A stretch of DNA of 64,000 bases from Bacteroidia bacterium (GTDB taxonomy: Bacteria; Bacteroidota; Bacteroidia; M30B66). Where the stretch lies: NCBI GenBank assembly GCA_965279035.1, contig OZ257142.1, positions 3,488,001-3,552,000 on the forward strand. The letters run 5' to 3'. The notes under the pieces are model-generated. The model searched no databases and was not told where the DNA came from. It worked only from the letters and a program-made list of their open reading frames with translations. Below are positions 6,502 through 61,313 of the stretch, one piece after another. Position 1 is the stretch's first letter. Every line of letters starts with the position of its first letter. A program made the translations under genes and the position numbers.

Positions 6502-6624
6502 CGTTCCGCACACACCTGAAGAGCCAAATGAGGTGAACGAAATGCTTTAGATTAGACGAATATAACAAGAAAAACGGATGCCTCACACCACCGAAATGCT
6601 TGGCTTTGCTGGTGTGTGCTGTTA
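6502..6624. repeat. attC-like repeat 1 (family B), interrupted by IS110; its TAAC is at 5234-5237
   Basis: gttcc-gcacacacc...ggtgtgtgc-t-gtta. Confidence 0.85.
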
Positions 6625-6929
6625 TGCGACGCTTTGTTTTCAAAATGCCCTTATAATTGATTTTGAATATACTGATTTTACTCTACTGGAAGTTCAAGTG
6701 ATAAGTGCAAATTTACTTTTAAAATTTTCAAAGTAGTAAAAGAAATTATACTTCGATATTTTGTAAAAATGATTTGTAATTGAATAGAACTAAATTAAAT
6801 ATTTCAAATAAATGAACACAAAAATGCTATACATAATATATGTATAAAAGATCAAATGACTTTTAAAAGATTTACAAAAGTTTAATACCAGGAAATTTGG
6901 ATTCTAAAAATATTGAATATATATTCACC

Positions 6930-8300
6930 CACACCCGTCCAAGACGTTTGTATAACGAAAATACAATCCTGATTTGATGCGAGATTACTCATCAAAGAAC
7001 GCTCTTTTGAAAATTAAACCCTCTATAATTTAAAAAAGGGACATTTGTAATTCCAGTTTATCAATTTCGTCATCATCTAAAAAGGGTTTATCAAGCCATT
7101 TTTTGAGGTCAATTTTCACAAAGAGATTTAATCGAATAAAGGACACCAAATTTGAGAGGTGCCAAGAGTGTTTTGCTTCCTTTTGAAGTGTCTTTAAAAG
7201 CAGTATGGTGATTAGTGCTGTCCAAATCTGTATCAGAACAGCATTCATGCTGGTTCCTATGAAAGACTTGATTTTCAGGTGTGTTTTGATCTCCTTGAAG
7301 AACGATTCGATGCTCCATCTACGTTTATATAGTTCTGAAATGGTCGATGCTGTCCAAGAAAAATTGTTTGTAAGAAGTTCAAGATATATCTGTTGTTCTT
7401 CATCCCAGATCTGAACCATTCGGAGCTTTTGCGGGTATTTTTCTTTTGATTGAGGTAAACTCAAAAAGCCTTTCCAGTCGTATTGCAAGTCTGGATTTGC
7501 TTCATCGGTTGGGCTCTTAGTTCGCTCATAAAGTTCAAACTGAATGTTTTCTTTTCCTCGAATAACAAAGAATACTCCTTGTTCATCTAATTTTCTCATC
7601 CAGTTAAAATCGACATATCCTCTATCAGCTACAACAATGCTTCCTGTGGGAAATTCAATATCATGTGCTGCATTTACATCGTGCTTTTTGCCATCACTCA
7701 AATCAGCAAAAACGGGCATACAGCCGTCAAAGTCAAGGACTGTGTGAAGTTTTATAGCTCCCTTCTTCTTTCGAAATAGTGCCCAGTCGAACACTTTAAG
7801 ACAAAGGTCAATCGTGGTTGAATCGAGCAGATAGATTTTACGTTTGGGAAGCAGCTTTCGGCTTGTTTTTAAGGTTGATTCAAACTGCTCATACAAGTTA
7901 AAATACATCGCTTGAAACAGCTCCCAGTTGCGATGTTGGTTATTATATGCCAACGATGATCGCCTCATGGCTTTTGACACTCCCAGATGATTTAAATCGC
8001 CTGTTGCTGATCGCATTCCATTGCAAACGTCATTTAAGCTATTAGACTTGGAAAACTGGCAAAAAACCATTGTCACAAAGTGAGACCAAGCATCATTGCC
8101 TTTACAATGTTTATTGGACTCAAACTTTTCTACTAGTTTATTGAAAGAATCTCGCTTAATTTTTTGGAATATCTGAGCAAATAATGTGATCTTCATGCCG
8201 GAGTTGGTTTATGTTTTTGTGTCGTAACTCAAACATACCGGATTTAATCCGGACCAACTCTATTTTTTTACCCTATTTTAAAACGTCTTGGACGGGTGTG
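6930..8300 (-). mobile_element. IS4-family insertion sequence
   Basis: Perfect 20 bp TIR cacacccgtccaagacgttt; 9 bp TSD atattcacc at 6921-6929 and 8301-8309. Confidence 0.95.
7030..8196 (-). CDS. IS4-family DDE transposase
   Basis: LLDST, VADRGY, YKRRWSIESFFK (YREK) motifs. Confidence 0.93.
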   Translation of the reverse strand: MKITLFAQIFQKIKRDSFNKLVEKFESNKHCKGNDAWSHFVTMVFCQFSKSNSLNDVCNGMRSATGDLNHLGVSKAMRRSSLAYNNQHRNWELFQAMYFNLYEQFESTLKTSRKLLPKRKIYLLDSTTIDLCLKVFDWALFRKKKGAIKLHTVLDFDGCMPVFADLSDGKKHDVNAAHDIEFPTGSIVVADRGYVDFNWMRKLDEQGVFFVIRGKENIQFELYERTKSPTDEANPDLQYDWKGFLSLPQSKEKYPQKLRMVQIWDEEQQIYLELLTNNFSWTASTISELYKRRWSIESFFKEIKTHLKIKSFIGTSMNAVLIQIWTALITILLLKTLQKEAKHSWHLSNLVSFIRLNLFVKIDLKKWLDKPFLDDDEIDKLELQMSLF

Positions 8301-8376
8301 ATATTCACCATACAAAATATTAAATGAATCGGCTCAAATAGATTCATTCTTTCCAGTAAATTTTAATTAATAGCTT

Positions 8377-9732
8377 ATGAATAACATTTACTCTTTCGAA
8401 AAAACATCAAAAGAATTTTACCTTGCTTGTAAAATTATTAGTTTCTTATTCTTAATGTTTTTAATTCATGATCCATTATCTGCTCAATCTAGTAATCCAA
8501 CTTTGACATGTAACTGGTCTCAATCTAACAATATTTCTGATTGTAATAATTTACTTTATCCATGTGTAAGCAATATTTCTGCAACTATTACTTATACTGA
8601 TTTCCCGGAGAATACTCAAATTAATTTCAATTTTCCAAATTCTTTTCATGTTGATATAACAGGGGCAATTAGTGTTGATGCGCCTGAAGCAATTAATGAT
8701 GGGCAATTTTATAATATTAATTCAATTGTAAGTGGCTCTGGAAGTTTAAATGTAAACCTGCAATTTCTTAATTGCAATTCAAATGGACCTGAAGTTATAA
8801 ATTTTAATAATTTAAGTTTTGATTGTTATGCGCCTTCGATTGGTCAGAATGGTTTAGAATCAGAATTTACTGGTCAAAATTTATCGATAGTTCCTGCGCC
8901 AAATACAATATTTACTTATACTTATGGAGGTCTTCCTTTTGAAATTATTAGTTGTAATAATTGTAATACTAGTTTAACCGCTCCTGGTTCAATAACAAGA
9001 AGTATTACTATTAAAGTTAATGCACCTCAAATTACTAATCTACTTTTTTCATATTCCGATGAAGCAGATGTGACTGAATCTTCTTTTGCTTTAAATGGTA
9101 ATGCAATAGTTAATTATATTGATTTAAATGGCATTCAGGTTGATGGTAACTGTGATAGGATTTTTAGTTTAACGCAGGATGTTGATGTGCAATGTGAAAA
9201 TTTTAGTGGTATTGGAAGTGTAAATATTTCTTTACCTTGTGGTGAATGTCAACCTTATTCCATATCAAATACTTTAAATGCGAGTATTAATTTGAATAAT
9301 CCTAATTTTTACATTACAAATACATTACAACAAGAAAATAATATTCTTGATGGATGCCCTGGTACTTATACAAATACTTATGTATTCCATAATATAAATC
9401 ATATTCCAATTAAAATTACGAATATTCAAGTTCCTCTAAATACAGGACTTTATTATATTTTAAATACCAAAGTAAATGGAATAGTAGTTGATTTCATTGA
9501 TACTTTAACTTTAATTGATGTTGGATATAATGATTTTACGCTTGTTTATGAATTAGGATTAAATTGTGAATATTATAAAAACTGTTCTCATCCAGTAAAT
9601 TATTTGAATCCTGAATCTGGAGAAATAAATATTTCATTTCAAAAAAATTGCACTGATACAATAACTTCACTTAATGTAGATTACACACCAATTTTAGGAC
9701 TGAATTATGCTTCAACTTTATTAGGTGGTGCA
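8377..9732 (+). pseudogene. N-terminal fragment of a large secreted protein, interrupted by IS3
   Basis: Signal peptide; LYPC...FPNSF similar to the N-terminus of the 2626 aa protein; reads into the IS3 end. Confidence 0.75.
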
Positions 9733-9781
9733 TGTATGTCTTCAAACAAAAGTGGACTTTTACTTAGAGAGTATTTCATTA

Positions 9782-10798
9782 TCAAATCAAAATTAGATTT
9801 AAATTTTGATTTTGTGATTTGAGTTTAGATTTTATCATCTCATATTCCATTCTTCTTGAGTTTAATGCTTCGTGTTTTAAGCGTTTTCTTTCTTTAAGGA
9901 TTTGATCACCTCTTCCATAGTATATATCAGCAGGAGTTAGGTTTTGCAATGATTCATGATAACGTTGGTTATTGTAATTATCAACAAATTTTCCCAGGGC
10001 ATCTTCAAGTTCTTCCGGACAATAATAGTGATTTAGCTTAACCACGTTTTTCATTGTACGATGATAACGTTCTATTTTACCTTGTGTTTGAGGATGAAAA
10101 GGCCTACCGTGTATTTGATCTATCTCATGGTTTTGCTTAAGGTAAGCACTGAGTTCCGCAGCAATATAACATGAACCATTATCCGATAATAGTTTGGGAC
10201 GAGGCTTTGACAGTAATTTGGCCTTTTTAATGGCTCTATCAACGGTTCTTTTTACATCTTCAACTTTCATCCCAGAACAGAGTTCCCAATGCACAATATA
10301 TCGGCTGTAATCATCTAAGATGGTACTTAAATAATACCAGCCCCAACCAATGATTTTAAAGTAAGTAAAGTCTGTTTGCCACATTTGATGAACAAATCCT
10401 GTTTTCTTAGAAAATTCATCGGCTGCTGAAATGAAAATATGGGCTGGTGAATTGATTAAGCCTCTCGATTTCAAAATGCGATAAACGCTCGATTCTGAAA
10501 TGAAAATCTGTTGCTCATCAGTTAGCTTAAAAGCAAGTTCACGAGATGATAATTCAGGATAATTCAAAGCAAGATCTACTACAAGATTCTTTTGCTGTTG
10601 TGGAATACTATTCCATTGCCTTTTTAAAACCCGCTTGCTTGGATTTAAGCCATCAACGCCGTTGTCAGCATATGATTTATACCATTTGTAAAATGTGCTC
10701 TTATTAAGCCCTATTTCACGTAAGGTGCGATTGACACCAATTTCAGATTGAACAACGAGATCGATGAGTTCCTGCTTTTCGGATGCTGTAAAACGCAT
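9782..10798 (-). CDS. IS3 transposase OrfB
   Basis: Identical to 1904-2920. Confidence 0.93.
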   Translation of the reverse strand: MRFTASEKQELIDLVVQSEIGVNRTLREIGLNKSTFYKWYKSYADNGVDGLNPSKRVLKRQWNSIPQQQKNLVVDLALNYPELSSRELAFKLTDEQQIFISESSVYRILKSRGLINSPAHIFISAADEFSKKTGFVHQMWQTDFTYFKIIGWGWYYLSTILDDYSRYIVHWELCSGMKVEDVKRTVDRAIKKAKLLSKPRPKLLSDNGSCYIAAELSAYLKQNHEIDQIHGRPFHPQTQGKIERYHRTMKNVVKLNHYYCPEELEDALGKFVDNYNNQRYHESLQNLTPADIYYGRGDQILKERKRLKHEALNSRRMEYEMIKSKLKSQNQNLNLILI

Positions 10799-10818
10799 AT
10801 ATTTTTTCAGTTTTACAG

Positions 10819-11172
10819 TTAATCCAGCATGGACAAGCTTTTTTTTACAATGTCATAGCGCAAAACCAAATCAGCGACCATTTCCTTTAAGCGCTGATTT
10901 TCTTTGCGAAGCTCTGACACTTCATCACTCGTAGCTTCGCGGGTTACATCACCGGAGAGACGCTTCTTACCTGCTTCCAAAAACTCCTTATTCCATTTAT
11001 AAAATTGACTCTCCTGTATAGAATACTTCCTACACAATTCTGCTACTGACAATTCAGCACGCAATGCCTCCATAACTATCTGGATCTTCTGTTCTGAACT
11101 GAAAATTCTTCTTGTCTTTCTGCGGATTTCTTTAATGTAATTCTCGGTCGTTTGTTTTTTCTTTGTTTCCAT
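10819..11172 (-). CDS. IS3 transposase OrfA
   Basis: Identical to 1530-1883. Confidence 0.9.
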   Translation of the reverse strand: METKKKQTTENYIKEIRRKTRRIFSSEQKIQIVMEALRAELSVAELCRKYSIQESQFYKWNKEFLEAGKKRLSGDVTREATSDEVSELRKENQRLKEMVADLVLRYDIVKKSLSMLD

Positions 11173-11254
11173 GGTTGTTAAAATTAAAAATATAACTTAG
11201 AAACACTCTCTTAGTTTTGACTATATTTAGTCCACTTTATGCTGACGATTTACA

Positions 11255-12655
11255 GCCAGTAATTCAGGAATAATTTTCCAACAAAATACAATGAAGTCTC
11301 ATGGAAATTCTTCACATATAGGAGCAGGTTTACTTTTAGGCTTTAACCCTAATATTATTTACAATAATAATCCAACGTCTATAACAATAGCTTCAGTAAT
11401 TGGACCTCAAGATACTACTAAAAATCAATGGCTTGATATGACATATGGTATTGGAGCAGTTGAACCTCAGGCAAGCTATTCATCCCAGACTAATCGTTTT
11501 TTTGTAAAAGGCAGTAATGATATTTCATTTTATACAAATCATGAACCTAATGATCCAACTTGCAACTTTGATTTGTTTTTTACTTGTCTTCCTGGTTCAA
11601 CATCTGCAGAAAGTAATATTTGTAGTTATGCTGGTTCAATAATAACGGGATATCGCATTGCAAATCCAAAGAACCTTATTGATATAATAAGTAAATCTGT
11701 TCATGACAGTTTATATTTTGACATGTATGATTCTGAAATTAACTATCAAGTAAAAAAAGATATTGATGTTCTTATTAAAAATCAAACTGGTACTATTCCA
11801 GATACGGGTACTATAAGTATTATGAATGCTATGATACAAACAACGAATATTCCTCAATTCAATAGTGTTAATAAACTTTCGGGTGAAAACAAAATTGATT
11901 CTTTAGAACTTGTAGAGTTTAAATTGAAAAGTAGAATCTTAGATTCATTAACTTTAATCAAAGATTCGTTAATCTTTGTTTATGATTCTGACTCAACAGT
12001 GATTAATGCTATTAATGCCCTCCAAAATGATATCAATACATTGGCTTCTAGTTTAACAAATATTCATAGCAATTATATTTCAATGAAGGCAGCTAGTAAT
12101 GAAAGTGCTAAGCAAGTAAATACTGCCATTACTCCTGTTAACTTAATGGAATATTTAGAAAAGAAAATCAATGTATACAATCACTTATACAATAGAGTAT
12201 CGTTTGTTGAATTTAATGAATCTGAAAAAAACATAATTGATTCTATTGCTTCAGTTTGCCCACTACTGGGCGGAAATGCTGTTTTCCTTGCCAGAAGTAT
12301 TCAATTTTCATACAATGACAGTATTTTTTACGATGATTTACTATTGTGCAATCAACAAGGTGTTTACAATCGTTTGGCAAATAAAGACAGCATTTATGAA
12401 TTGAAAGAAGAGCATTTTGTAGTTTATCCAAATCCATCAACTGGTGAATTGAATATATATTTAAGCTCAGGGGATATATACTCAATTCAAATCTTTAATT
12501 TATTAGGTCAATTGGTGTTTAAAGAATCTGATTTGAAATTAAAAACAACAGTTCTTATAGACAAAGAAAAGCTTGCAAATGGCACCTATATTCTGTTGCT
12601 TGAAAATAAAGTAACGGGGAAAATAGAGCGTAAAAAAATCAATTTCAATCATTGA
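11255..12655 (+). pseudogene. C-terminal part of a large T9SS-sorted protein
   Basis: No signal peptide, begins at the IS3 end, CPLLGGNAVFLAR motif and YPNP CTD. Confidence 0.8.
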
Positions 12656-12662
12656 ACTTAAA

Positions 12663-14201
12663 ATGAAAATCAAAATGTGTAATACAAAAATTATTTTTTG
12701 TTTTTTTATTGTCTTGTTATCATTGTCGCTCAAAGCACAACGTCAATCTGATGTTTTGGTAATGGGTAATAGTGTATATAGTATACCCGCCGAAGCTCCA
12801 GGTTCTAATTTCTTGATGGTATTTAATGAAGATAGTTTAGAATATATCGACAATGAAACCCCCATTATTCTATCCAATTTTTTTAGTCGTGCCTCATACT
12901 CAGATAAACACGGGAATTTAAAATTTGCATCCAATGGTTGGCGATTGGTGAATAGTTTTGGAGAAGTTCTTTCCTATAAATTATGGCGAGAAGATATGGA
13001 ATGGCCTCAAGGCTCTCCAGATACTACTCTAGTTGATATATCCAAAGGACCTTTGTTTTTAGAGGATCCCGCCGACAGCAATCGGGTGTATTTGTTTTAT
13101 GGACAATATAAACGCGATATACCATCTTCAATTGGACTAATTAGTCAAGATGTATATTTTACTTATGCTATTTTAGATGTACCATCACAGAGTATGATTA
13201 GTATTAATCATACTGTTTTGAGTGACACTACGTCTATTTCGGATGCAGTGGCTGTTCGTCATGGAAATGGTCGCGATTGGTGGATTATTAAGCCTGGAAT
13301 TTTTTCTAATGAATACTATATTGGATTATTGGATATCAATGGGGTATCCTCTATGCAGCATGTATTTATTGAAGGATTAGAACCTCATACACAAACCTAT
13401 ACAACATCTCATTTTAGTCAAGATGGAAATCACTTTATTCATTTTTCTGGATTTGGTCCTAAATGGGTTCAACGAATGGATTTTGATCGTTGCACTGGTA
13501 TTTTAAGTAACCCGCAAGATCTGGATATTAGTTCCTTATTTAGACCTGCTGACTTGCCTAATTTTATTCCAAGTCCAGATTTATCTAAGTTTTACGGAAA
13601 ACGATTAAATTACAATGATAGTAGTTATCAATACGGAACATATCAATATGATTTTGTTAATGATTCATTAACCTTTATAACCTTAGCTACAGGTCTTTCT
13701 TTTATTTCACCAAATTATAATAACGTATTCAACTTTGAATTATTTGATAATTCTAATCCATTTGAAAATATGTATTATAGCACAATAAATAACCTTACTG
13801 GAAATGGATTGGAATACCAACAGTTTCGTTATGAATTAACTAATACTGCAACGTGCGTTTTAGCACCTAATATAGTTAACTATAGGCTTGGCTCTTTAGT
13901 CGGGAGTGCTTGTGATCCTTTAGCCTTAGAAGATATGGCATTAATTAAATCAAAAAAACTCAGTCTCGAACTATTTCCCAATCCAGCAAATACTCAATTG
14001 CATGTCCGCATAAATGATCCCCAAAATGATTATTCAATACGATTGTATAACTCAATTGGTGAATTAGTGTATTCAACTCAATTAAGTAAAGGACTATTGG
14101 ATATTGATTTGACTTCTTTATCTCTTAGTTCTGGTGTGTATTTTATTGAATTATCCAATTCTACAGTCATAAAGCGTGAGAAAATTTTGATTGCTAATTG
14201 A
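12663..14201 (+). CDS. T9SS type A-sorted partner protein
   Basis: Close paralog of 3615-5159. Confidence 0.85.
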   Translation: MKIKMCNTKIIFCFFIVLLSLSLKAQRQSDVLVMGNSVYSIPAEAPGSNFLMVFNEDSLEYIDNETPIILSNFFSRASYSDKHGNLKFASNGWRLVNSFGEVLSYKLWREDMEWPQGSPDTTLVDISKGPLFLEDPADSNRVYLFYGQYKRDIPSSIGLISQDVYFTYAILDVPSQSMISINHTVLSDTTSISDAVAVRHGNGRDWWIIKPGIFSNEYYIGLLDINGVSSMQHVFIEGLEPHTQTYTTSHFSQDGNHFIHFSGFGPKWVQRMDFDRCTGILSNPQDLDISSLFRPADLPNFIPSPDLSKFYGKRLNYNDSSYQYGTYQYDFVNDSLTFITLATGLSFISPNYNNVFNFELFDNSNPFENMYYSTINNLTGNGLEYQQFRYELTNTATCVLAPNIVNYRLGSLVGSACDPLALEDMALIKSKKLSLELFPNPANTQLHVRINDPQNDYSIRLYNSIGELVYSTQLSKGLLDIDLTSLSLSSGVYFIELSNSTVIKREKILIAN

Positions 14202-14275
14202 ATTTATACATAACCCAATAATTGAATGATCATAGTGCTTATTTTATTGCATTATGCTTATTACAAAGTGTTGCA

Positions 14276-14402
14276 TAACGCTCCGCGTGCAACTCGAGGT
14301 TTGGGAATTGGTCAGCAGAATGCTTTAGATTAGACGAATATAGCAAGAAAATTGAAATGATTTAACCGAGCAGAATGCCCAAATCTTGAGTGCACGCTGT
14401 TA
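14276..14402. repeat. attC-like repeat 2 (family A)
   Basis: taac-gctcc-gcgtgcaactcgaggtttggg...cccaaatcttgagtgcacgc-t-gtta. Confidence 0.88.
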
Positions 14403-14413
14403 GTGGCTGGTGT

Positions 14414-15328: not shown

Positions 15329-15358
15329 AGTAAAATGATAGTTAAAAACACTTGCCAC

Positions 15359-15485
15359 TAACGCTCCGCGTGCAACTCGTGGTTTGGGAATTGGTTTGCA
15401 GAATGCTTTATTTTAGACGAATATAGCAAGAAAATTGAATTGCTTTAACCTAGCAAAATGCCCAAATCTTGAGTGCACGCTGTTA
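15359..15485. repeat. attC-like repeat 3 (family A)
   Basis: taac...gtta palindrome. Confidence 0.88.
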
Positions 15486-15928
15486 TAAGATGCGCGCCAA
15501 CTCAGCCTATGCGTGACTAGTAAAATTCAATCAAAATAAGCCATTCCAAAATCTTCATTACAAAGAAGCTTTCCCAAAACTCTGAGCAGATTTGATTGCA
15601 TTCTATGCTGAATATAGAATTTGAAAATCTCTAATGCCTTTTCGTCATGCACATTCTCGAGGCCATTTTTTATGGATCTCGCTCACCAAACTAGCAAAGG
15701 CATTTACATTCGATTTCATTCATATAAAATATCAAGCAAACAAAACCGAGATAAATATTTCTGCTGAATTTGAGTTCTGACCTTTTCAATGGCTTATTTT
15801 GAACTTGCAAAATCTAAGGCGATTTTTCCTGTTCGATCCCAACTAAAAACAGTTTTACAAATTGCATGAATAACTCATTTGTGCAAAATGTTGCCGACTT
15901 TGCGGAAGAGATTCGCGTTTCTTATAAC
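15482..15928. repeat. Non-coding cassette X, copy 1
   Basis: gttataagatgcgcg...cgcgtttcttataac; nested inverted repeats; no conserved ORF. Confidence 0.85.
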
Positions 15929-51889: not shown

Positions 51890-52102
51890 TACGTTGTGCT
51901 TTACTCTATTGTATATTATTAGAGTTTCAATTTTCAGGCATTGGGCATATTTGACAGTTTAATAGTGTCTTTCATTCTCTTGGGCTTTGTTAAATACTAT
52001 TTGTGTTCTAATTTATTTGGGCAATTGTATTTATTTCTTGTCTTTCCGTTTAGTCTGTTTGGGCGTTTTTTCATAACAGGACACACCTCTCCCATCTACG
52101 TT

Positions 52103-53314: not shown

Positions 53315-53317
53315 CTT

Positions 53318-53587
53318 TTATTCATAATTACCATCATCCAAAACTTCCAGAGCGATGCCATAAGCTTCAAAGGAATCAGGTGCGATAAGCTCACGTTTAC
53401 CCGCCTTTTCACCATAAATATTGTCGTCCTCATCGATTACTATCGTGTCATACAAGGAAAACAACTTCTCAACTTCCTCATCGAAATCTTCATAATTAGG
53501 AAAGCCGTCATCATCTGTAAATAGTTGAAACTGATCTCCATCATTGAAGATATAAAATTGTGCTTTGTTTAGTTTTAATTCTCTCAT
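53318..53587 (-). CDS. Small acidic protein, copy 3
   Basis: Identical to 36699-36968. Confidence 0.7.
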   Translation of the reverse strand: MRELKLNKAQFYIFNDGDQFQLFTDDDGFPNYEDFDEEVEKLFSLYDTIVIDEDDNIYGEKAGKRELIAPDSFEAYGIALEVLDDGNYE

Positions 53588-53645
53588 AATGTATGTTGTA
53601 TAAATTGATAATCTTATAATGGTAACGCGATAAAAGCATTACGTA

Positions 53646-53771
53646 CAACGTTTTGCAGATTTGCGATGGGCGGGTTTTTTACCACAAATGTTTATGCGGA
53701 GTACTAAACTTTCAGCTACCACAAAACCGTCTGCGAAATACGAAACCCCGCCTATTGCAAATGTGCTGTTA
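53646..53771. repeat. attC-like repeat 27 (family F)
   Basis: caac-gtttt-gcagatttgcgatgggcggg...cccgcctattgcaaatgtgc-t-gtta. Confidence 0.88.
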
Positions 53772-53783
53772 CCTGCTGGCATT

Positions 53784-54614
53784 TTAGTTTGTAGTTATTA
53801 CTGTCGTTTGAATAAAACCACTCTTTGAATTTAAGTCAAGGTCGAAATTGTCAAGTTTCATATTCATTCCCATTTCTGTGTCAATTTGATATTTAAGATA
53901 ATAATTATTTGAAACGTCATAAAGCAATTTTCCTTTTCCGCTACCTGTCGCTTTGATAGTATATTTTGTAATGGTAGATTTCATTGTGTAAACTTGTGAT
54001 ACGTCAAAGTTCGCAATGCCATTTGTTATACTCAACAATTTATAGTTTGTTGTAATTGTCATTTCAATTGTCACGCCAGCAATAGGAATTGAAAGAGGCG
54101 ATTCTCTTGAGAAACTTTCACCAACCTTAACCTTTTTCTCTGGAAAAGATAGTTGTGAAAATGTGCTTTGCATTGCTTGAAGTAATGTCTTTTTAAACTC
54201 CTCGTCAAGTCCCTCTGAAACAATTGAGTCAAGTGTAGGCATATTTCCAATTGAACCGTGTCCATAAATAAGTGTTCCGTCTGGAATGTCTTTTTTGCCG
54301 TCACTACTTGTTGTCTTAACAAACTCCATAGTTAAGGGGAAATTTGTCCCGTCAGTAAGCTTACCCGTTTTGAAAACAGATTCTATTTTGGATACCTTGT
54401 CCGTTATGGTCGGATTTTGAACTCCCTTGTCTTTTAATTTTTGAAGGAATTCCTCAGAACCTGAATATTTCATGTCCGTATGAGATGTTTGTTCAATTGT
54501 CTGACTATATTTTGTTTCAGGTTTATATTGAACCTTGAAGGTAAGTCCGTCTTTTGATTGACTATTACACGAAATTTGTGTCAGCGTTAAAAGCAGTAAA
54601 ATAATTTTTCTCAT
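53784..54614 (-). CDS. Putative lipoprotein
   Basis: Lipobox-like ISC at residues 14-16; beta-rich. Confidence 0.75.
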   Translation of the reverse strand: MRKIILLLLTLTQISCNSQSKDGLTFKVQYKPETKYSQTIEQTSHTDMKYSGSEEFLQKLKDKGVQNPTITDKVSKIESVFKTGKLTDGTNFPLTMEFVKTTSSDGKKDIPDGTLIYGHGSIGNMPTLDSIVSEGLDEEFKKTLLQAMQSTFSQLSFPEKKVKVGESFSRESPLSIPIAGVTIEMTITTNYKLLSITNGIANFDVSQVYTMKSTITKYTIKATGSGKGKLLYDVSNNYYLKYQIDTEMGMNMKLDNFDLDLNSKSGFIQTTVITTN

Positions 54615-54653
54615 CTGTTTGTCTGTTTCTGTGTGGTCTGTTATGCTTGCAGG

Positions 54654-54779
54654 TAACGTTTTCGGGCTTGGCGAAGGTGGCGATTTTCACCAAAAATGTT
54701 GATGCGGAGAACCAATGTTTGATTAACCACAAAACTGTCTACGGAGCACTGAACCGCCACTTTTGCCAAGCCCGTGTTA
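54654..54779. repeat. attC-like repeat 28 (family E)
   Basis: taac...gtta palindrome. Confidence 0.88.
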
Positions 54780-54801
54780 TGCGGTCGTTTTTCTTTTAGT
54801 G

Positions 54802-55356
54802 TCATGGTTTGTAATATTTTATTAGCCATATAAAACTTGTCAAATATAAAAGTCTTTGTGCAATGCCTTGGTAATTTTTCAGCAGACCAAAAGTTGCAGA
54901 AAGTCCTATAACAAGAATAAAAAATGCTAGGTGAAAATATTTTATGGTGTTGTCTGTCGTGAAAAATATTTGCGTCAAAATACCAATACTAAATGTAATA
55001 CCTGCGATTTGAGCAAAGGCCGAATGAAGTGTTGATTGTGTTGTCGAGTAAGTGTCGATATCAACGAATGGTTTGGTGCAGAATATTCCTGTCAATGCTA
55101 CACAAATTCCATAAATAAAGATTGGGCTTGTCCGCCAAGTAAGTCCGTTAATAAAAATCCCAATAGCCAAAGTCAGCCCGAACGCTAAAAAACCAATTTG
55201 CATAACTAGTTTTCTGTCGTAGCCTTGAGAACCTAGGTCGCTAATTGTGTTTTTTGTCCAGTCATAATTGTCTATCGAGAAAATATGAGCAATTAAAATA
55301 AATAATACAAAGAGTGTAGTTGATATAATATGATAATTTAATTTGAAAAGTTCCAT
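54802..55356 (-). CDS. DUF998-like membrane protein
   Basis: Y.W...TISDLG; LH...A; G..QR. Confidence 0.78.
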   Translation of the reverse strand: MELFKLNYHIISTTLFVLFILIAHIFSIDNYDWTKNTISDLGSQGYDRKLVMQIGFLAFGLTLAIGIFINGLTWRTSPIFIYGICVALTGIFCTKPFVDIDTYSTTQSTLHSAFAQIAGITFSIGILTQIFFTTDNTIKYFHLAFFILVIGLSATFGLLKNYQGIAQRLLYLTSFIWLIKYYKP

Positions 55357-55357
55357 T

Positions 55358-56194
55358 TTAATAATCAGTTATTTTTTCTTTACTAATAAAATAGTTTCCT
55401 TGCCTATCGGTTAAACTCAAATTATTTGTCCCAAAGTTTTTAAAAATATATATTGCAATAAAAACAAACCCTGTACTTAAAACTGCAACTATGATTTCCT
55501 TGTCAAATTCCGAACAGAAATTATTTAAAAAATGGAAAGTCATTGCAGGTATCAGAAATCCTTTGCTTGAATTGTATATGGAAGTCAGAATTACTGAACC
55601 CACAAAAATTCCGAAGAAAAAGCCAATGGCTATTCCCAACGAAAAGTCAAAGCGATAAAAGAAAAAGGGGATGTGCCATAAAGCCCAAATTACAGTTAAA
55701 ATGATTGTTGATTTCCAGGCGGAAAAATTTTCTTGTAAATGAGGCAACAAAAAACCTCTCCAACCTATTTCTTCGAGTATTGAATAAGTCAATAGTGGCA
55801 GAAGCCAGATAATGAAAGGATTTAAAGAAGTCCAATTTAATTTTGCAAATGCTTCAAAATTGTAATAGTCCGATTTTACTATTTTGAAAATCAATAACCC
55901 GAATATGAAAAATAGTATAGGGGTAATTGTCAGTTGTATTGTTTGCTTGCTAGGGATATGAAATTTGAGTTTTGACAGTAGTTTCTTTATTCCTTGTTTG
56001 CCATAAAATGAATAAGTTGTAACGAAAGCTGCAATTGTAGGTCCTATTGCTGCGAATGAGTGGAAAAAATTCAAATGACTTTGATCAATAGTCTCCTTTC
56101 TGAAAAGCCAATTAATTCCAAATGCAATTGACCAAGTAATACCAAAGGCTAAACTTGAATAGAGAATTACTTTTTTATTTAAGTCCTTTGTCAT
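55358..56194 (-). CDS. CPBP/CAAX (Abi) intramembrane metalloprotease
   Basis: EEIGWRG, WALWH, H...N motifs; start MTKDL at 56194. Confidence 0.9.
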   Translation of the reverse strand: MTKDLNKKVILYSSLAFGITWSIAFGINWLFRKETIDQSHLNFFHSFAAIGPTIAAFVTTYSFYGKQGIKKLLSKLKFHIPSKQTIQLTITPILFFIFGLLIFKIVKSDYYNFEAFAKLNWTSLNPFIIWLLPLLTYSILEEIGWRGFLLPHLQENFSAWKSTIILTVIWALWHIPFFFYRFDFSLGIAIGFFFGIFVGSVILTSIYNSSKGFLIPAMTFHFLNNFCSEFDKEIIVAVLSTGFVFIAIYIFKNFGTNNLSLTDRQGNYFISKEKITDY

Positions 56195-56233
56195 TTCTGT
56201 CTGTGTTCTAGTGGTCTGTCCTAAAATGCCGCA

Positions 56234-56359
56234 TAACGTTTTGCAGCTACAAGAAGTTGGCGATTTCGGAGACGAAAACTGTCTGCCAGCACTGAACTTG
56301 ATACGAAGCACAAATGTTCATTTAACCACTGAACCGCCAATTTCTTGTAGGTGCTGTTA
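56234..56359. repeat. attC-like repeat 29 (family G)
   Basis: taac-gtttt-gcagctacaagaagttggcg...cgccaatttcttgtaggtgc-t-gtta. Confidence 0.88.
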
Positions 56360-56375
56360 TAGGGCGTTGTTCTTC

Positions 56376-57359
56376 TCATGCTTTTACGTCTGTCTGTTTT
56401 CTACTTTTTATAATTCTATTTGTCGTACCGATAATAATTGCACAAACAAGTCCAATTGCTGTCAGTAGAAGTGAAAAGAAAGGTGCTATGTTTGCATATT
56501 CAAGTCCTTCTATTCCCGCAACGTCTGTATAAAATCTTTGTTTTTTGATAAGTTCATATTGATTGTTCTTTTCAGCGAACAAGAATTCATATTTTGAGTA
56601 ATGGTCATTTGAGACTTGTCCACCACTCAACCCAGCAAAAATATATTTTTCATTGTCTTCTGTTGTGAATTCAGTAATAATGCCATTTAACTGACCAGAA
56701 GTGTCCCAATTTTTTTCGCCTTTATCAATTAGCTTACTTTCTTTAATTTGCTTGTCAATGGTCAGCAAAATATTTTGGGATGCTTTTAATTCTGGATTGT
56801 TATATATTTTAGGAAAGTCATACAAGTATCCGTTTATATGAGCCCTGTCTTCGAAAACCATAAAAATCCTATCAGAAGTACCATAATAAAAATCTTTTCT
56901 ACCATATAAATTGTCCATTGATTTTGTAGTGTCTATTGTAACATGAAGCGGTTTAATACCTATGGAATCAATATTAGAAACTCTCGAACATGTTACAACT
57001 TTGTCTGCTTTTAGGATTTCACTAAAAACTGCTGGTCTTTTAAAAGCATACCCCCAATAATTATAATTCATAATTGAAGCTGTCACGGTAAAGGCAAGTT
57101 GCAAAATAAGCAATGACCCTAAAAGTATTTTTAAACCTTTAGAAATATATTTATTCTTAAACCAAAAATAAAAGGTCAGTCCCGCAAGTAATGGAACTAA
57201 AAAGAAAATGAAATACCAAGTTAAACTTTCTGAATAATGAAGAGAAATGTTGTCATATAATTGTCGATTACTAGCCGTCAAGAACGTAAGAAGTCCATGA
57301 GCAATAGTAAAACCTGTCGCTGTGTAAATCAATATGTCTATGGTCTTTTGTCGTGTCAT
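56376..57359 (-). CDS. Membrane-anchored hypothetical protein
   Basis: Three N-terminal and one C-terminal TM segment; fills its cassette. Confidence 0.75.
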   Translation of the reverse strand: MTRQKTIDILIYTATGFTIAHGLLTFLTASNRQLYDNISLHYSESLTWYFIFFLVPLLAGLTFYFWFKNKYISKGLKILLGSLLILQLAFTVTASIMNYNYWGYAFKRPAVFSEILKADKVVTCSRVSNIDSIGIKPLHVTIDTTKSMDNLYGRKDFYYGTSDRIFMVFEDRAHINGYLYDFPKIYNNPELKASQNILLTIDKQIKESKLIDKGEKNWDTSGQLNGIITEFTTEDNEKYIFAGLSGGQVSNDHYSKYEFLFAEKNNQYELIKKQRFYTDVAGIEGLEYANIAPFFSLLLTAIGLVCAIIIGTTNRIIKSRKQTDVKA

Positions 57360-57373
57360 TTTACAATGCCCTA

Positions 57374-57499
57374 TAACGTTTTGCAGCTACAAGAAGTTGG
57401 CGATTTCGGAGACGAAAACTGTCTGCCAGCACTGAACTTGATACGAAGCACAAAGCTTCATTTAACCACTTAACCGCCAATTTCTTGTAGGTGCTGTTA
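57374..57499. repeat. attC-like repeat 30 (family G)
   Basis: taac...gtta palindrome. Confidence 0.88.
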
Positions 57500-57524
57500 G
57501 CGGTTCGTGCTTCTTGTTCTGTCC

Positions 57525-57977
57525 TCATTTGAAAATGTCAAAGTTGGTGTGAAGAAATTTGTCCCATTGCGGTTTTGGATGTTCAGTTTTTTTCTTTGTG
57601 TCTTTGCCGTTAAACCATATTGAACGCTTGCCCTTATTTTTTCCTGTCTTGTTTTGAACCGCATTGTCAACAAACTCTTGTGATGATAAAATCCATGTCT
57701 TGTCCATGCGGTGAGAATAAAATACAAAATAATAATTGTCCCGTTGCTCATGAGTGATTGCTGCAAAAAGTGCTGCATCTCCGAACAGAACGTCTTTTGA
57801 ACGGGCTTTGATTTGAAGTTCTACAAATGAACCGTCTTTCTTTCTAACAACTGCGTCAATTCCGAAGTCGTCAATAAGTGGAATGTAAACGTCAAGTCCT
57901 TGTTCAAGCATTTTGCTAATTACAAAATACTCCATTCGTTTTCCAAAGCCAGCGTTGTGTCTGAAAGTATTACTCAT
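57525..57977 (-). CDS. PD-(D/E)XK nuclease superfamily protein
   Basis: G...E, DD.GID, ELQIKAR. Confidence 0.78.
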   Translation of the reverse strand: MSNTFRHNAGFGKRMEYFVISKMLEQGLDVYIPLIDDFGIDAVVRKKDGSFVELQIKARSKDVLFGDAALFAAITHEQRDNYYFVFYSHRMDKTWILSSQEFVDNAVQNKTGKNKGKRSIWFNGKDTKKKTEHPKPQWDKFLHTNFDIFK

Positions 57978-58300
57978 TAGCTAAAAATTAAAGTTGCCAC
58001 AAAACTGTCATTGTCATGTCGCTTGTAAAAAACTCGTCCGCCCTCCATGTAAGTGCGAACCATAGTTCTTATCCATCGTCCTTTGTCATTTGTCGGTGCG
58101 AAAGCTAAAACTTGTGCCAGATGTTTGTTGTCCATAATGATTGGTGGTACTTCAAAGTTCTTGGTCGTGTCGGTGCCTTGCAAGTCCGTTTCAATGTTTT
58201 CAAAACTTAAAGTTGTTCTGTCAACCAAAAGTTCTGTCGTGATGTGATTACTTAAAACATTTTCTCTTTCGTTTTCTGTCCAGTCAGTGAATTTTGTCAT
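57977..58300 (-). CDS. Hypothetical protein
   Basis: 107 aa, translationally coupled to the nuclease gene. Confidence 0.65.
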   Translation of the reverse strand: MTKFTDWTENERENVLSNHITTELLVDRTTLSFENIETDLQGTDTTKNFEVPPIIMDNKHLAQVLAFAPTNDKGRWIRTMVRTYMEGGRVFYKRHDNDSFVATLIFS

Positions 58301-58362
58301 AATTGTATTGTTTGTTTAGTTAATGTCTGTTGATGTTTGCACTGTCGTCATAGCATGACCGC

Positions 58363-58488
58363 TAACGGTTTGCAGCTACAAGAAGTTGGCGATTACGAAG
58401 ACGAAAACTGTCTGCCACCACAGAACTTGATACGAAGCTCAAAGCTTCATTTAACCACTGAACCGCCAATTTCTTGTAGGTGCTGTTA
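58363..58488. repeat. attC-like repeat 31 (family G)
   Basis: taac...gtta palindrome. Confidence 0.88.
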
Positions 58489-58504
58489 TGCCCAGTTTTT
58501 CTTC

Positions 58505-59605
58505 TCACGTCAAGTCGTTTATGTCGTCCTGGAATACATAGTTTCTATGATAGTCTAGATATTCCTGTCTATCCTCTGGATATATTCTCAAGTTGTTTTT
58601 AGCGTTTGGATTAATATTAAGTCTTTCCCAAGTGTATGCTGAAAGCAAAGTGCCACAAACTAAATCTCCGTTGTCTTTAAAAGTTATGTAGCCTTGGTCA
58701 AAAAGTTTGTCGTAAGTTGGAGTTAAAGCAAGTCCGTTTAAATAATCAATTGCTTGGTCTTCACGTCCCTCCTTAATACAAACTCTGTAAGGTTTGATAT
58801 GGCTTGCAATTAGCAGTTTCTCGTCTGATATTTTTGTGAATGGACATTGTGGCATATGCTCAATAACTTTCTTTCTGTATTGGTCAGCACCTTGTCGTCC
58901 AATTGATTTTGTAGTTTCTCTTTTAGCTTTTTCTTCAACTTCAAGTTCGGCTGTCGTACCAATTAGTTTTGGGTGAACAATTGACCTAAATTGATAATCT
59001 AACAATATTCTGAAATAGAAAAGTGGTTTTTGATTTTCTTTATTTCCAACTACTGGTATGAGTTTTAGAATTGATAAATAGCTAATCTTTGGTAGAACTA
59101 ATTTTCTCCAAATATCCCAAATAGGTTCATCTGAACGTATATAACCTCTGCTTAATTTGTTATCTGTGAAATCCGAAACATCATAGATGCTAAAAAATAT
59201 CTTTTCATCTTCAAGTGCAGTGATGCTTTCTAAATTTTGAGTGTAAAATTCCGCAATATCAAAATTGTAGATTTGTTCTTGTTTTTGATATTCAATTCTT
59301 GCATCGTACATATATTTTAGCAAGTTTGACTTGCTAAAAAAGCAATTTCCTTCTTGAATTGGTGTATAAACTCTTTCGCCATTTTCTATCCCTTTTCCCC
59401 AATCTGAATATTCAAAAAAATCACTTAATCTTTCACCACTTTTCCCTACATAACCACCTACATATTTTCTTGATTCGCCATTGCCTTTGAACATTTGAAG
59501 CTTATTCTTGCGATAAATGAAACTATCCTCAGCTCTTAAATTTTGAATTGAATCAATAATAAAGTACTCCTTGCCTTCAATATGTATTTTTTGAAAATTC
59601 TCCAT
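58505..59605 (-). CDS. HNH restriction endonuclease-like protein
   Basis: CPFT...LIASHIKP...NGLAL...DKLFD.G.ITF (HNH_2). Confidence 0.85.
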   Translation of the reverse strand: MENFQKIHIEGKEYFIIDSIQNLRAEDSFIYRKNKLQMFKGNGESRKYVGGYVGKSGERLSDFFEYSDWGKGIENGERVYTPIQEGNCFFSKSNLLKYMYDARIEYQKQEQIYNFDIAEFYTQNLESITALEDEKIFFSIYDVSDFTDNKLSRGYIRSDEPIWDIWRKLVLPKISYLSILKLIPVVGNKENQKPLFYFRILLDYQFRSIVHPKLIGTTAELEVEEKAKRETTKSIGRQGADQYRKKVIEHMPQCPFTKISDEKLLIASHIKPYRVCIKEGREDQAIDYLNGLALTPTYDKLFDQGYITFKDNGDLVCGTLLSAYTWERLNINPNAKNNLRIYPEDRQEYLDYHRNYVFQDDINDLT

Positions 59606-59608
59606 AAT

Positions 59609-61084
59609 TTATTTAGCAAATTTAGTAATGTCCATTTGTTTTAATAGTGCAATAAGAACATCTACTACAATGCTATTACCTGCTTGTCTATACATTTGTG
59701 TGTCGCTAACAACTTGCTTAAAGTCGTCACGGAAGCCCATTAGGCGTAGGCATTCTTTTGGTGTTAGTTTTCTAATTCGTCCTGTATGAGTAACATAATT
59801 GTCAACCCCAGCTCGGTGCATTTTATGCATACTTTGTAAAAGAGGTCTTGCTACTTCAAGGTCTGTTTTTACTGATGTTTTAAAGGTTTTCGTTCCGCTA
59901 CTTAGAACGTAATCTCTTACTTTATCCGACAAATAATATTTCTCTTCAACTTTATTTACATCAAAAACAAAATCTGAAAATTCAGGTTCGTTACCTTGTT
60001 CAAAAACAAAATCACCGTGCCAATTAAATTGTTGATTTGCTTTTTGACAAAGTGCAACTTCGCCATTTATTTGTGTGTAACGTTTGTTTCTGTTTTTTGA
60101 ACTGGTTACGAATTTTACACCTTTTTCTTTCAAGTAATATTTGCTGTCTGTGTAATCTTCTAAAAAGTCTTGCATTTTATGTTCAAGTGCAATTGATTCT
60201 GGAAATTGAAAATCAATTGTTTTGTCTTTGAAACCAACAACAAAAATTCTTTCTCTATGCTGTGGCATTCCATAGTTTTTTGCATTTAGAACTTGGAAAT
60301 AATATTTATAACCTAATTCGTCAAATGTCGCTTTAATGGTTTCAAAAGTGTTGCCATTGTCGTGATTGATTAATCCTTTTACGTTTTCAAAAATGAAAAC
60401 ATTCGGCTGACTTTCTTTTACAACTCTTGCAAATTCATAAAATAAAGTTCCTCTTGTGTCATCAAAACCTCTGCGTTTTCCAACCATTGAAAATGATTGA
60501 CAAGGGCTACCACCAACCAATAAGTCTAATTTCCCTTTGTATTTTTTCCCGTTTATGTCGTGAACATCATTGTACCAATTGCTTTCAGCAATTTCATAAT
60601 TTGCAAAATAACTTTGCTTTGCAAAGCTATCAATGTCGCTTGCAAATTGAATTTCAGAATTTAAGTTTAAGCGTTTTAAAGCGTACTCAATAGCACCAAT
60701 TCCTGAAAACATTGTTCCAATTCTAATGGTTGCGTTAGGGTTTGAAAATTCTTTTTCTCTCCAGTCTTTTTGAAATTTTAAAACTTGTTGATTTGCGTAG
60801 AAACCTAATTGTTCATTTACAATATTTAAGACTTCTTGATATTCGGGATATGATTTTAATTCTTCAACAATTTTGGTTGAGTAATGATAATTTAGAAGTA
60901 CTCTTTTGTCTGTTTGCAGTATTTGACAAAGGTTTTCAAGTTGGTCAATGTTTAGATGCCTTTCGTCCTTTTCAATTTTTCCAAGGGTCGAAGGGTCTAT
61001 GTCTATGTGTGAAGCAACTTTGCGAAGGGGAAAACCTAATTCGGTTCTTTTCTGTTTTATATATTCTCCAAATGTAACTTCCAT
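59609..61084 (-). CDS. XRE-HTH-fused DNA (cytosine-5) methyltransferase
   Basis: N-terminal HTH; FSGIG, GSPCQ, ENV, Q.RER, Q.GNS motifs. Confidence 0.93.
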   Translation of the reverse strand: MEVTFGEYIKQKRTELGFPLRKVASHIDIDPSTLGKIEKDERHLNIDQLENLCQILQTDKRVLLNYHYSTKIVEELKSYPEYQEVLNIVNEQLGFYANQQVLKFQKDWREKEFSNPNATIRIGTMFSGIGAIEYALKRLNLNSEIQFASDIDSFAKQSYFANYEIAESNWYNDVHDINGKKYKGKLDLLVGGSPCQSFSMVGKRRGFDDTRGTLFYEFARVVKESQPNVFIFENVKGLINHDNGNTFETIKATFDELGYKYYFQVLNAKNYGMPQHRERIFVVGFKDKTIDFQFPESIALEHKMQDFLEDYTDSKYYLKEKGVKFVTSSKNRNKRYTQINGEVALCQKANQQFNWHGDFVFEQGNEPEFSDFVFDVNKVEEKYYLSDKVRDYVLSSGTKTFKTSVKTDLEVARPLLQSMHKMHRAGVDNYVTHTGRIRKLTPKECLRLMGFRDDFKQVVSDTQMYRQAGNSIVVDVLIALLKQMDITKFAK

Positions 61085-61104
61085 ATTTGTCTATTTTTTT
61101 GTTC

Positions 61105-61126
61105 GGACTATTTTTGTCCAAAAGTA
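61105..61126 (-). promoter_or_regulatory. Promoter -7 box and palindromic operator of the MTase gene
   Basis: TACTTTTG (61119-61126) abutting GGAC-N7-GTCC (61105-61119). Confidence 0.55.
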
Positions 61127-61187
61127 TGGAATGTTTGTCATGTTCGCAAATTTTGTTGTCAACGGTCGGTCGTCCTAAAATTGGGCA

Positions 61188-61313
61188 TAACGTTTTGCAG
61201 ATTTGCGATGGGCGGGATTTTCAGCACAAATGTTGATGCGGAGCACAAATCTTTCGGCTACCACTAAACTGTCTGCGGAGAACGAAACCCCGCCTATTGC
61301 AAATGTGCTGTTA
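61188..61313. repeat. attC-like repeat 32 (family F)
   Basis: taac...gtta palindrome. Confidence 0.88.

What the first reader, a model, noticed from the sequence alone, without database searches (positions are those of the whole stretch)
6621..61191. Every cassette body has its own ~13-17 bp terminal inverted repeat with a conserved mismatch
Seen, left end versus reverse complement of right end: HNH gttagtggc-TG-gtgttt / -AA-gtgttt; 9.5 kb cassette gttagccct-TG-gcggtt / -AA-; Y2 gttgtacgt-TG-tgcttt / -AA-; X gttataaga-TG-cgcg / -AA-; Y gttatttga-TG-cgcg / -AA-; 28971 gttaccgga-TG-ccct / -AA-; TA gttatatgc-AG / -AA; 43582 gttaccagc-CG / -CA; R-M gttatgccc-AG / -AA; 54776 and 57496 TCG / CA. 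The sequence is cassette-specific but the geometry is fixed: 9 bp, then G opposite T (sometimes with an extra base), then 4-6 bp. Canonical integrons need only the 7 bp R box to be complementary. Inference: paired cassette ends form a second recombinase-binding arm outside the repeat.
Basis: partly seen in the sequence, partly recalled or inferred. Interest (0 to 1): 0.88.

Follow-up and report, generated by a model that had tools for sequence, protein, structure and literature searches.

The report
Split recombination arm of gene cassettes
The matching ends of each gene unit in this bacterial DNA are one half of a folding recombination site that is complete only when the unit is cut out as a circle, and the same site design packages antibiotic-resistance genes such as tet(X) in related bacteria.

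Summary
Observation confirmed. The window holds 32 hairpin sites separating 31 cassettes. All 18 distinct end pairs match at positions 5-7 (54/54) and 12-15 (72/72; shuffled 28), with G opposite T at position 11 (18/18). Homologous Bacteroidota arrays agree (32/32). The stem is not an extra arm but the full R-side arm of a two-arm site. The hairpin interior carries a mirror arm with the same wobble, and the docking (attI-like) site carries the same motif. Homologous arrays follow an IntI-related recombinase lacking the IntI insertion. Best model: T.G wobbles keep a recognised T only in the bottom-strand hairpin and so replace extrahelical bases as strand selectors. This is inferred, not tested. 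Canonical cassettes also often pair 10-12 bp, without the wobble. Closest in print: rAID arrays of gut Bacteroidales, whose short sites lack this wobble. tet(X), aadS and a class D beta-lactamase are cassettes with these ends. This scan found the system before on other DNA; my look-ups found no note of the symmetry or the tet(X) link.

The parts
5235..61312 (-). Array of 32 attC-like hairpin sites. Intact (AAC start to GTT end): 14277-14401, 15360-15484, 15926-16048, 16428-16551, 26096-26219, 27778-27902, 28346-28470, 28850-28973, 34578-34700, 35145-35268, 37028-37149, 39523-39645, 40025-40147, 40592-40715, 41662-41784, 42229-42353, 42733-42856, 43461-43584, 45882-46006, 46448-46570, 49381-49502, 49882-50005, 51765-51888, 53647-53770, 54655-54778, 56235-56358, 57375-57498, 58364-58487, 61189-61312. 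Split by IS110: 5235/6623, 37690/39078, 47034/48422. Most cassette genes read on the - strand, so the + strand corresponds to the integron 'bottom' strand.
   Evidence: all on one strand, none on the other, and 0 hits in 1 Mb of shuffled DNA with the structural finder
6621..14279 (.). Cassette body, 7.7 kb: T9SS-sorted proteins on the + strand, interrupted by a DDE transposase and an IS3-type element; ends pair with G.T at 8 and 11
14399..15362 (-). HNH endonuclease cassette; identical copy at 48420-49383
15482..15928 (.). Cassette X, no recognised gene, 7 copies (15482, 27900, 34698, 39076, 40145, 41782, 46004), 90-100% alike and mosaic
16046..16430 (.). Cassette Y, no recognised gene, 5 copies (16046, 28468, 39643, 42351, 49500)
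16549..26098 (-). 9.5-kb cassette with two T9SS-sorted proteins (2626 and 497 aa)
26217..27780 (-). Cassette with a methyltransferase and an unknown gene; extra-base end type
28971..34580 (-). 5.6-kb multigene cassette (DUF4386, GNAT, glyoxalase, FMN reductase and others)
35266..37030 (-). IS91-family (Y2) transposase plus an 89-aa ORF as a cassette; copies at 50003-51767 and 51886-53649, each with the same hairpin on its left
37147..37692 (.). Cassette Z, no recognised gene, extra-base end type; related body at 46568-47036
40713..41664 (-). TPR-protein cassette
42854..43463 (-). ParE toxin (toxin-antitoxin) cassette
43582..45884 (-). Two-gene cassette (GYF_2 protein and an unknown gene)
53768..54657 (-). 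Cassette with an unknown 276-aa gene; same first 9 bp as 40713 but different distal 4 bp
54776..56237 (-). CAAX-protease plus DUF998 cassette; extra-base end type
56356..57377 (-). Unknown 327-aa gene cassette; relatives in metagenomes used for the linkage test
57496..58366 (-). Two small unknown genes; extra-base end type
58485..61191 (-). Restriction-modification-like cassette (C5 methylase and HNH_2 endonuclease)
5238..6502 (+). IS110 element inserted right after the AAC of a site; further copies at 37693-38957 and 47037-48301

Best explanation
This is a gene-cassette array of an integron-like Bacteroidota system. Each cassette is a body plus the hairpin downstream of its genes (shown by linkage). 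When a cassette is excised and single-stranded, its two ends and its hairpin fold into one long stem: a 14-15-bp outer arm, a short spacer with a 3-4-nt bulge, and an inner arm (predicted by folding). The two arms are mirror images of one motif, T-N-N-C-N-N-N-Y-A-(A) read towards the crossover, and the double-stranded docking site behind the recombinase gene has it too (shown by alignment). One recombinase monomer would bind each arm, and the monomer on the outer arm would cut the bottom strand at AA|C (inferred from integron precedent). In both hairpin arms the T ten base pairs from the cut pairs with G. That T, and a stable pair, exist only in the bottom-strand hairpin; the top strand gives C opposite A. 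This would select the strand, and so the cassette orientation, without extrahelical bases, which fits a recombinase that lacks the IntI insertion (inferred). In the linear array the outer arm is made of two unrelated cassette ends and pairs for only about 4 bp, so insertion would be favoured over excision (inferred).
For: End pairing and covariation; homologs 32/32 G.T; Bacteroidales regions 43/48 G.T and 173/192 at positions 12-15. Inner arm: G.T at stem position 14 in 144/146 and 11/12 interiors. An outer-arm profile scores best at one register only: 5 nt after AAC for the inner arm, 6 nt before GTT for attI-like sites. Unbiased attI-like set of 11: A(-8) 10, T(-9) 9, C(-13) 7, T(-16) 8. A second site geometry (8-nt instead of 9-nt spacer strand, and 61-nt interiors) keeps the wobble at the same arm position (35 of 42 site calls). 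Folding: the circle junction pairs AAC:GTT with probability 0.98 against 0.43 in the array, and the + strand folds better in 24/24. Linkage to the downstream hairpin. A co-oriented recombinase lies upstream of the sites in 11 distinct loci; it is below the IntI cut-off and lacks the insertion. In each of these 11 a perfect 9-bp match to a downstream cassette end was sought near the gene; 8 gave one within 180 nt of the stop.
Against: No recombination, binding or circle was observed; contigs of 4 runs gave no interpretable excision joint. No recombinase lies in the window and no genome is held, so the enzyme is assigned from other genomes. Ten of 16 recombinase loci with about 10 kb downstream showed no convincing site. 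Twenty-one of 53 homologous inter-site stretches did not pair at the first 7 bp (missed sites are likely but not shown). Two near-identical cassette pairs differ in the hairpin they should own, and diverged alleles often do. Gut-type sites of the same recombinase family do without the wobble and the distal 4 bp (0/9). C at arm position 7 is only moderately kept (G 0.42 in inner arms, 7/11 in attI-like sites). G.T pairs are generally enriched on attC bottom strands for stability (PMC5027507, passages), so stability alone may explain part of the pattern.
Confidence: 0.6

Rival explanations
1. Same system, but the outer stem and its G.T serve folding only. They close and stabilise a 118-nt hairpin in the excised circle and bias it to the bottom strand, with no base-specific reading by the protein.
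For: The circle junction gains about 9 kcal/mol and near-certain pairing of the triplet. G.T mispairs are known to favour bottom-strand folding in canonical attC (PMC5027507, passages). Short gut-type hairpins lack the distal stem.
Against: Stability would not fix the wobble at one position in both arms, in mirror register, across site types of different length. Nor would it keep the same T in double-stranded attI-like sites. Gut-type starts still keep the same base at position 11 (19/24).
Confidence: 0.22
2. One reading: the outer stem is a separate accessory site, bound by a further protomer or by the N-terminal HARP-like module, in addition to the two core arms. In this form the distal 4-6 bp beyond the wobble would be a module-binding site.
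For: The recombinases have an N-terminal module, longer or repeated in some, with weak likeness to XPB, UvsW, MotA and HARP domains (Z 4.2-6.7; Pfam HARP E 0.011). Pairing reaches further than in canonical cassettes.
Against: The stem is continuous with the crossover triplet and stops at about 14 bp from the cut, which is one monomer footprint for this enzyme class (recalled). Its motif mirrors the inner arm.
Confidence: 0.1
3. The ends are transposon-type terminal inverted repeats or targets of the IS91-like Y2 transposase (or of a classical IntI acting from elsewhere), and the neighbouring recombinase is incidental.
For: Three Y2 transposase copies lie in the array. IntI-like recombinases without the insertion are described from IS91 and IS3 elements (10.1101/542381, passages). 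Some recombinase loci have no sites.
Against: End sequences differ between cassettes. The Y2 gene is itself packaged as a cassette. The first cassette joins a conserved site just behind the recombinase. The sites lack the extrahelical-base geometry that IntI reads (PMC3053210, passages).
Confidence: 0.08

Closest known systems
rAID (rAID-1) arrays of gut Bacteroidales (Ross et al., bioRxiv 10.1101/471110; follow-up PMC12247911; passages read)
   Same: XerD-like tyrosine recombinase at the 5' end, co-directional short genes, and intergenic repeats 'reminiscent of integrons'. Loci that fit this description (Imm43 and Tdi1 immunity genes) have recombinases 43-47% identical to the array-head enzyme. 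Their repeat also occurs in Parabacteroides gordonii MS-1, a strain used in that paper. Their cassette ends pair at positions 2-9.
   Different: Gut-type sites have a mostly 40-nt interior, start with ATT rather than GTT (23/24), and lack the G.T at 11 and the distal 4 bp (0/9). Cargo here is not immunity genes. [quoted passage not shown] Supplementary figure S4 (motifs) could not be seen.
Classical integrons (IntI, attI, attC), including sedentary chromosomal integrons and clusters of attC sites without integrase
   Same: Tandem co-oriented cassettes; AAC/GTT triplet; hairpin owned by the upstream gene; bottom strand folds better; 5-nt spacer after AAC; 7-bp spacer in the docking site; cassette-specific end pairing beyond 7 bp; IS110 insertion in sites. 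The best fold match of the recombinase model is the Vibrio IntIA-attC complex 2A3V, tied with XerA.
   Different: No extrahelical bases in most inner arms, but a 3-4-nt spacer bulge and fixed T.G wobbles in both arms. The outer arm is 15 bp and the R box is not GTTRRRY. The recombinase lacks the IntI insertion, has an N-terminal module and is co-oriented with the cassettes.
Xer-type simple tyrosine-recombinase sites (dif; XerA, 5HXY)
   Same: Two inverted arms of about 11-14 bp around a 6-7-bp spacer (general knowledge); fold match to XerA.
   Different: One partner site here is a folded single strand whose outer arm is contributed by the two ends of the cargo, with free sequence at most positions.

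Membership tests
Classical integron | Integrase with the IntI-specific insertion | tested here: not met
   10 array-linked recombinases match TIGR02249 in two stretches at 188-213 bits, cut-off 265; about 40 residues of IntI1 are unmatched in this region. The enzymes are from other genomes; none is in the window.
Classical integron | attC hairpin with a conserved AAC/GTT triplet and better-folding bottom strand | tested here: met
   32/32 sites have the triplet; + strand more stable in 24/24 circle junctions
Classical integron | Two extrahelical bases (T-N6-G type) in the L box | tested here: not met
   146 of 159 interiors pair in register for 20 bp without a bulge; 12 have one extra base on the other arm
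Classical integron | R box consensus GTTRRRY | tested here: not met
   Position 5 is T 8, G 6, C 4 of 18; position 8 is G in 16 of 18
Classical integron | attI site beside the integrase gene, where the first cassette begins at GTT | tested here: met
   In homologous loci only: 16 attI-like junctions, 11 found by end match alone
Classical integron | Crossover on the bottom strand between A and C; cassette owns the downstream hairpin | tested here: inconclusive
   Linkage fits in Y2 x3, one X pair and four metagenome copies; two near-identical pairs are exceptions. The cut position cannot be read from sequence.
Classical integron | Demonstrated excision and insertion; cassette promoter | not testable with these tools
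   (contigs only) gave no interpretable joint; promoter not examined
rAID-1 | 5' XerD-like recombinase over 44% identical to BF9343_RS08045 | tested here: inconclusive
   The reference protein was not fetched; identity to gut Bacteroidales array-head enzymes is 43-47%; no recombinase in the window
rAID-1 | Two or more co-directional genes of at most 41% GC with intergenic repeats | tested here: met
   Window GC 0.28-0.41 per kb; most cassette genes on the - strand
rAID-1 | Cargo of orphan immunity genes | tested here: not met
   No immunity family among 47 window proteins scanned in Pfam; several have no match
rAID-1 | The short gut-type intergenic motif | tested here: not met
   Gut-type interiors are 40-48 nt and end in ATT without the wobble; window interiors are 116-119 nt

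The most novel reading that the evidence does not exclude
Bacteroidota run a second kind of integron chemistry. A Xer-like, IntI-related recombinase without the IntI insertion recombines a single-stranded hairpin whose strand is chosen by two mirror-placed T.G wobbles instead of extrahelical bases. Half of the site is donated by the cargo's own ends, so it is complete only in the excised circle. This system, which includes rAID as a reduced gut form, is the route by which tet(X), aadS, lnu(H)-like and class D beta-lactamase genes are assembled into arrays before other elements carry them to Proteobacteria.
Probability: 0.45. Interest if true: 0.87.

Novelty: new variant of a known kind. Interest (0 to 1): 0.66.

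Why it matters
It gives a base-level, testable model for the recombination site of a phylum-wide cassette system. Its gut form (rAID) is published, but with the mechanism stated as open. It suggests how an integron-like enzyme can choose one DNA strand without the domain thought necessary for that. It also supplies a search rule (paired ends, G.T at 11, mirror arm) that finds these arrays with no false hits in shuffled DNA. And it ties the system to resistance. tet(X) in an Empedobacter plasmid is a complete cassette with exactly these ends. One Bacteroidales genome has a recombinase followed by lnu(H)-like, aadS, tet(X) and class D beta-lactamase cassettes. tet(X3) and tet(X5) in Acinetobacter plasmids sit at the attI-like site behind a recombinase of this family. 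Surveillance tools that require the IntI domain would not call these integrons.

Tried and rejected
No genome is held for the window, so its own recombinase could not be sought. Rfam gave no meaningful match. I first thought the hairpin interiors were shuffled freely on both sides of the bodies; identical copies mostly keep the left hairpin, so I dropped that, with two exceptions left open. Laying contigs of 4 runs on 53600-61500 gave joints explained by the repeats, and no circle. The strict finder missed the second site geometry and the gut-type sites. Patterns found nothing. Cassette X has no match in the phage collection, in the fetched loci or in earlier notes. The protein search named no reference rAID enzyme. 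The N-terminal module's fold matches are below the level that separates relatives from common arrangements. Ten paper searches showed no description of these ends, the wobble or tet(X) as such a cassette. The library lacks most subscription papers, and I saw most hits only as listings.
Full report
1. What is in the window. The DNA is AT-rich and encodes several T9SS-sorted proteins, which points to Bacteroidota (inference; no genome is held). A search for AAC ... GTT hairpins found 29 intact sites with 116-119-nt interiors, and three more are split by IS110 copies right after the AAC. They delimit 31 bodies of 385-9550 bp. Most genes read on the - strand, so the + strand is the integron 'bottom' strand. 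No tyrosine recombinase was found among the 47 proteins scanned.

2. The observation. Across the 18 distinct end pairs, a body's left end matches its own right end at positions 5-7 in 54/54, 8-9 in 35/36 and 12-15 in 72/72 (shuffled partners 17.6, 18.5 and 28.1). Position 11 is G opposite T in 18/18, and there is no pairing at 17-22 (19/108). One extra base was allowed in 5 of 18 and in the shuffles. All four bases occur at several paired positions, so this is covariation, not conservation. A site pattern hit 127 loci, nearly all Bacteroidota. After dropping 4 duplicates, a profile found 150 sites and 53 inter-site stretches in 26 loci. Thirty-two pair at the first 7 bp; all 32 have the G.T and pair at 0.94-0.97 at positions 12-15. 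The other 21 are unexplained but probably span missed sites. In 27 of 40 fetched Bacteroidales regions (the rest were too short or not pooled), 63 site calls gave 48 distinct end pairs, located by a 9-bp match. The G.T was present in 43 and positions 12-15 paired in 173/192.

3. Control with classical integrons. From 81 IntI1-type loci a simple attC finder gave 44 distinct cassettes, 24 with a perfect 7-bp box. These pair at 0.75, 0.67, 0.67, 0.71 and 0.54 at positions 8-12, fall to 0.21-0.42 at 13-15, and show the G.T in 2 of 24. So an extended cassette-specific R arm is general; the 15-bp reach and the fixed wobble are not. The finder is crude and the set is rich in related resistance cassettes.

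4. Anatomy of the site. Of 159 distinct interiors, 158 begin with G and 158 end with T. On the + strand the triplet is therefore followed by a G.T pair, a 4-nt bulge and a 20-bp stem. Stem position 14 is G opposite T in 144/146 in-register interiors and in 11/12 with one extra base. Read outwards from the centre, the cassette start is T-T-A-N-N-N-G-N-N-A. The inner arm has T at 2 (0.93) and A at 10 (0.98). A profile of the outer arm scores best at one register: 5 nt after AAC for the inner arm (0.2 against -7.0 for the next; -1.9 against -6.6 on 33 clusters) and 6 nt before GTT at attI-like sites (3.1 against -6.8). Five of those 16 attI-like sites were found with a pattern that contained TA; the 11 found by end match alone give A(-8) 10, T(-9) 9, C(-13) 7, T(-16) 8. 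Sites with a different spacer and with 61-185-nt interiors keep the wobble at the same arm position. Modelled circle junctions pair the triplet with probability 0.98, array junctions 0.43; mean energies are -32.9 against -23.7 kcal/mol, and the + strand beats the - strand in 24/24.

5. Polarity. Three Y2 copies and two identical X copies share the left hairpin and differ on the right. Four metagenome copies of one allele of the 56356 cassette share one left hairpin behind four different neighbours; three of them show three different right hairpins. This is the integron rule: the cassette owns the hairpin downstream of its genes. Against it, the two identical HNH copies and X at 39076 (99.1% like 34698) differ in the left hairpin, both times at an IS110-split site. 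Alleles 77-95% alike often differ too.

6. The enzyme. The commonest protein family near the sites is a tyrosine recombinase: 14 ORFs, of which 11 distinct loci have it upstream of and co-oriented with the cassettes, one is a duplicate, one lies on the other side with a Y2 transposase, and one has no site nearby. It has the catalytic residues, scores below the IntI cut-off in two stretches, lacks about 40 IntI1 residues, and folds like IntIA and XerA. Its N-terminal module has only weak matches to XPB, UvsW, MotA and HARP domains. Starting from the enzyme instead, 6 of 16 loci with about 10 kb downstream showed sites and 10 did not. Homologs were found in 89 of 201 genomes of one order.

7. 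Mechanism. Shown: paired ends, mirror arm, shared motif, strand bias in folding, linkage, gene neighbourhood. Inferred: binding of one monomer per arm, the cut at AA|C (by analogy; PMC7439510 and PMC5027507, passages), and strand choice by the wobbles. Classical IntI reads extrahelical bases through its inserted helix (PMC3053210, passages). These sites mostly have none, and the enzyme lacks the insertion. A T.G pair leaves T at arm position 10 only in the bottom-strand fold, as in the double-stranded docking site; the top-strand fold has C opposite A. I put this at 0.6, pure folding stability at 0.22, an accessory site at 0.1 and other enzymes at 0.08.

8. Known relatives. Ross et al. describe a XerD-like recombinase with co-directional genes and integron-like intergenic repeats in 226 of 423 Bacteroidales genomes (10.1101/471110, passages; supplements not visible). 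A 2025 preprint calls the biogenesis mechanism open (PMC12247911, passages). Loci of that description carry this recombinase family and short sites. Of 24 distinct bodies, 9 pair at positions 2-7; all 9 also pair at 8-9, and none has the G.T at 11. IntI-like enzymes without the insertion are noted from IS91 and IS3 elements (10.1101/542381, passages). IntegronFinder requires the IntI domain to call an integrase (PMC9668308, passages). I also read passages of PMC8618304 and PMC13700133, which add nothing on these sites. Earlier notes of this scan describe the same system, including long paired ends, on other DNA. Look-ups for the symmetry and for tet(X) found no note holding all the words.

9. 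Resistance cargo. In Empedobacter plasmid NZ_CP040909, tet(X) starts and ends with the 9 + 1 + G.T + 4 pattern and is followed by a 119-nt site; lnu(H) is followed by a site too. In two Acinetobacter plasmids tet(X3) and tet(X5) begin at the attI-like GTT behind a recombinase 46% identical to the family; the site after tet(X3) is incomplete.

10. Verdict. The feature is real and far beyond chance. It is the split outer arm of a two-arm hairpin site in an integron-like system: a new variant of a known kind. The platform is partly in print and was already seen by this scan; the mirror-wobble architecture and the tet(X) link are the additions. Interest 0.66.

Noticed in passing
window 5235-6502, 37690-38957, 47034-48301: Three IS110 copies sit at the same base, right after AAC, and only in one hairpin subtype (3 of its 7 copies). 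Both exceptions to hairpin ownership lie at these sites.
   Followed up: partly
window 15482-15928 and six more (X); 16046-16430 and four more (Y); 37147-37692, 46568-47036 (Z): Fourteen of 31 bodies are short cassettes with no recognised gene. X is followed by Y four times, and X copies are mosaic. No match outside the window in the loci, phages or earlier notes searched.
   Followed up: partly
window 35266-37030, 50003-51767, 51886-53649: An IS91-family Y2 transposase with an acidic 89-aa ORF is packaged as a cassette, two copies in tandem. In L033 a related recombinase plus a Y2 transposase lie on the cassette side of a site.
   Followed up: no
L302 (NZ_CP040909) around 18165-19490; L353; L141 8960-10250; L303 4030-4100: tet(X), aadS, lnu(H)-like and class D beta-lactamase genes are cassettes of this family; tet(X3) and tet(X5) in Acinetobacter follow the family recombinase at an attI-like site.
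   Followed up: yes
L375, L355 and L381 onwards: Gut Bacteroidales arrays use short sites that end in ATT, giving a G.T pair at position 1 instead of 11, with what looks like one extra base in the inner arm.
   Followed up: partly
L140 (NZ_CP041688) 14980-25100: A Chryseobacterium plasmid carries the recombinase and an array that also holds an IS110 element and a group II intron.
   Followed up: no
window sites, inner stem position 4: The last spacer pair is a G.G mismatch in 94 of 146 interiors, next to where a second-strand cut would fall; it might disfavour a second exchange.
   Followed up: no
attI-like regions of L003, L018, L026, L036, L037, L141: A short palindrome overlaps and precedes the left arm of the docking site; it could be a further binding site.
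   Followed up: no
window 1-5235 and 6621-14279: Related T9SS-gene blocks with the same right end flank the first site, each broken by an IS3-type element, so the array probably extends beyond the window start.
   Followed up: no
window 49381-49502: A hybrid hairpin: the first part is of the Y2-linked type and the rest of another type.
   Followed up: no
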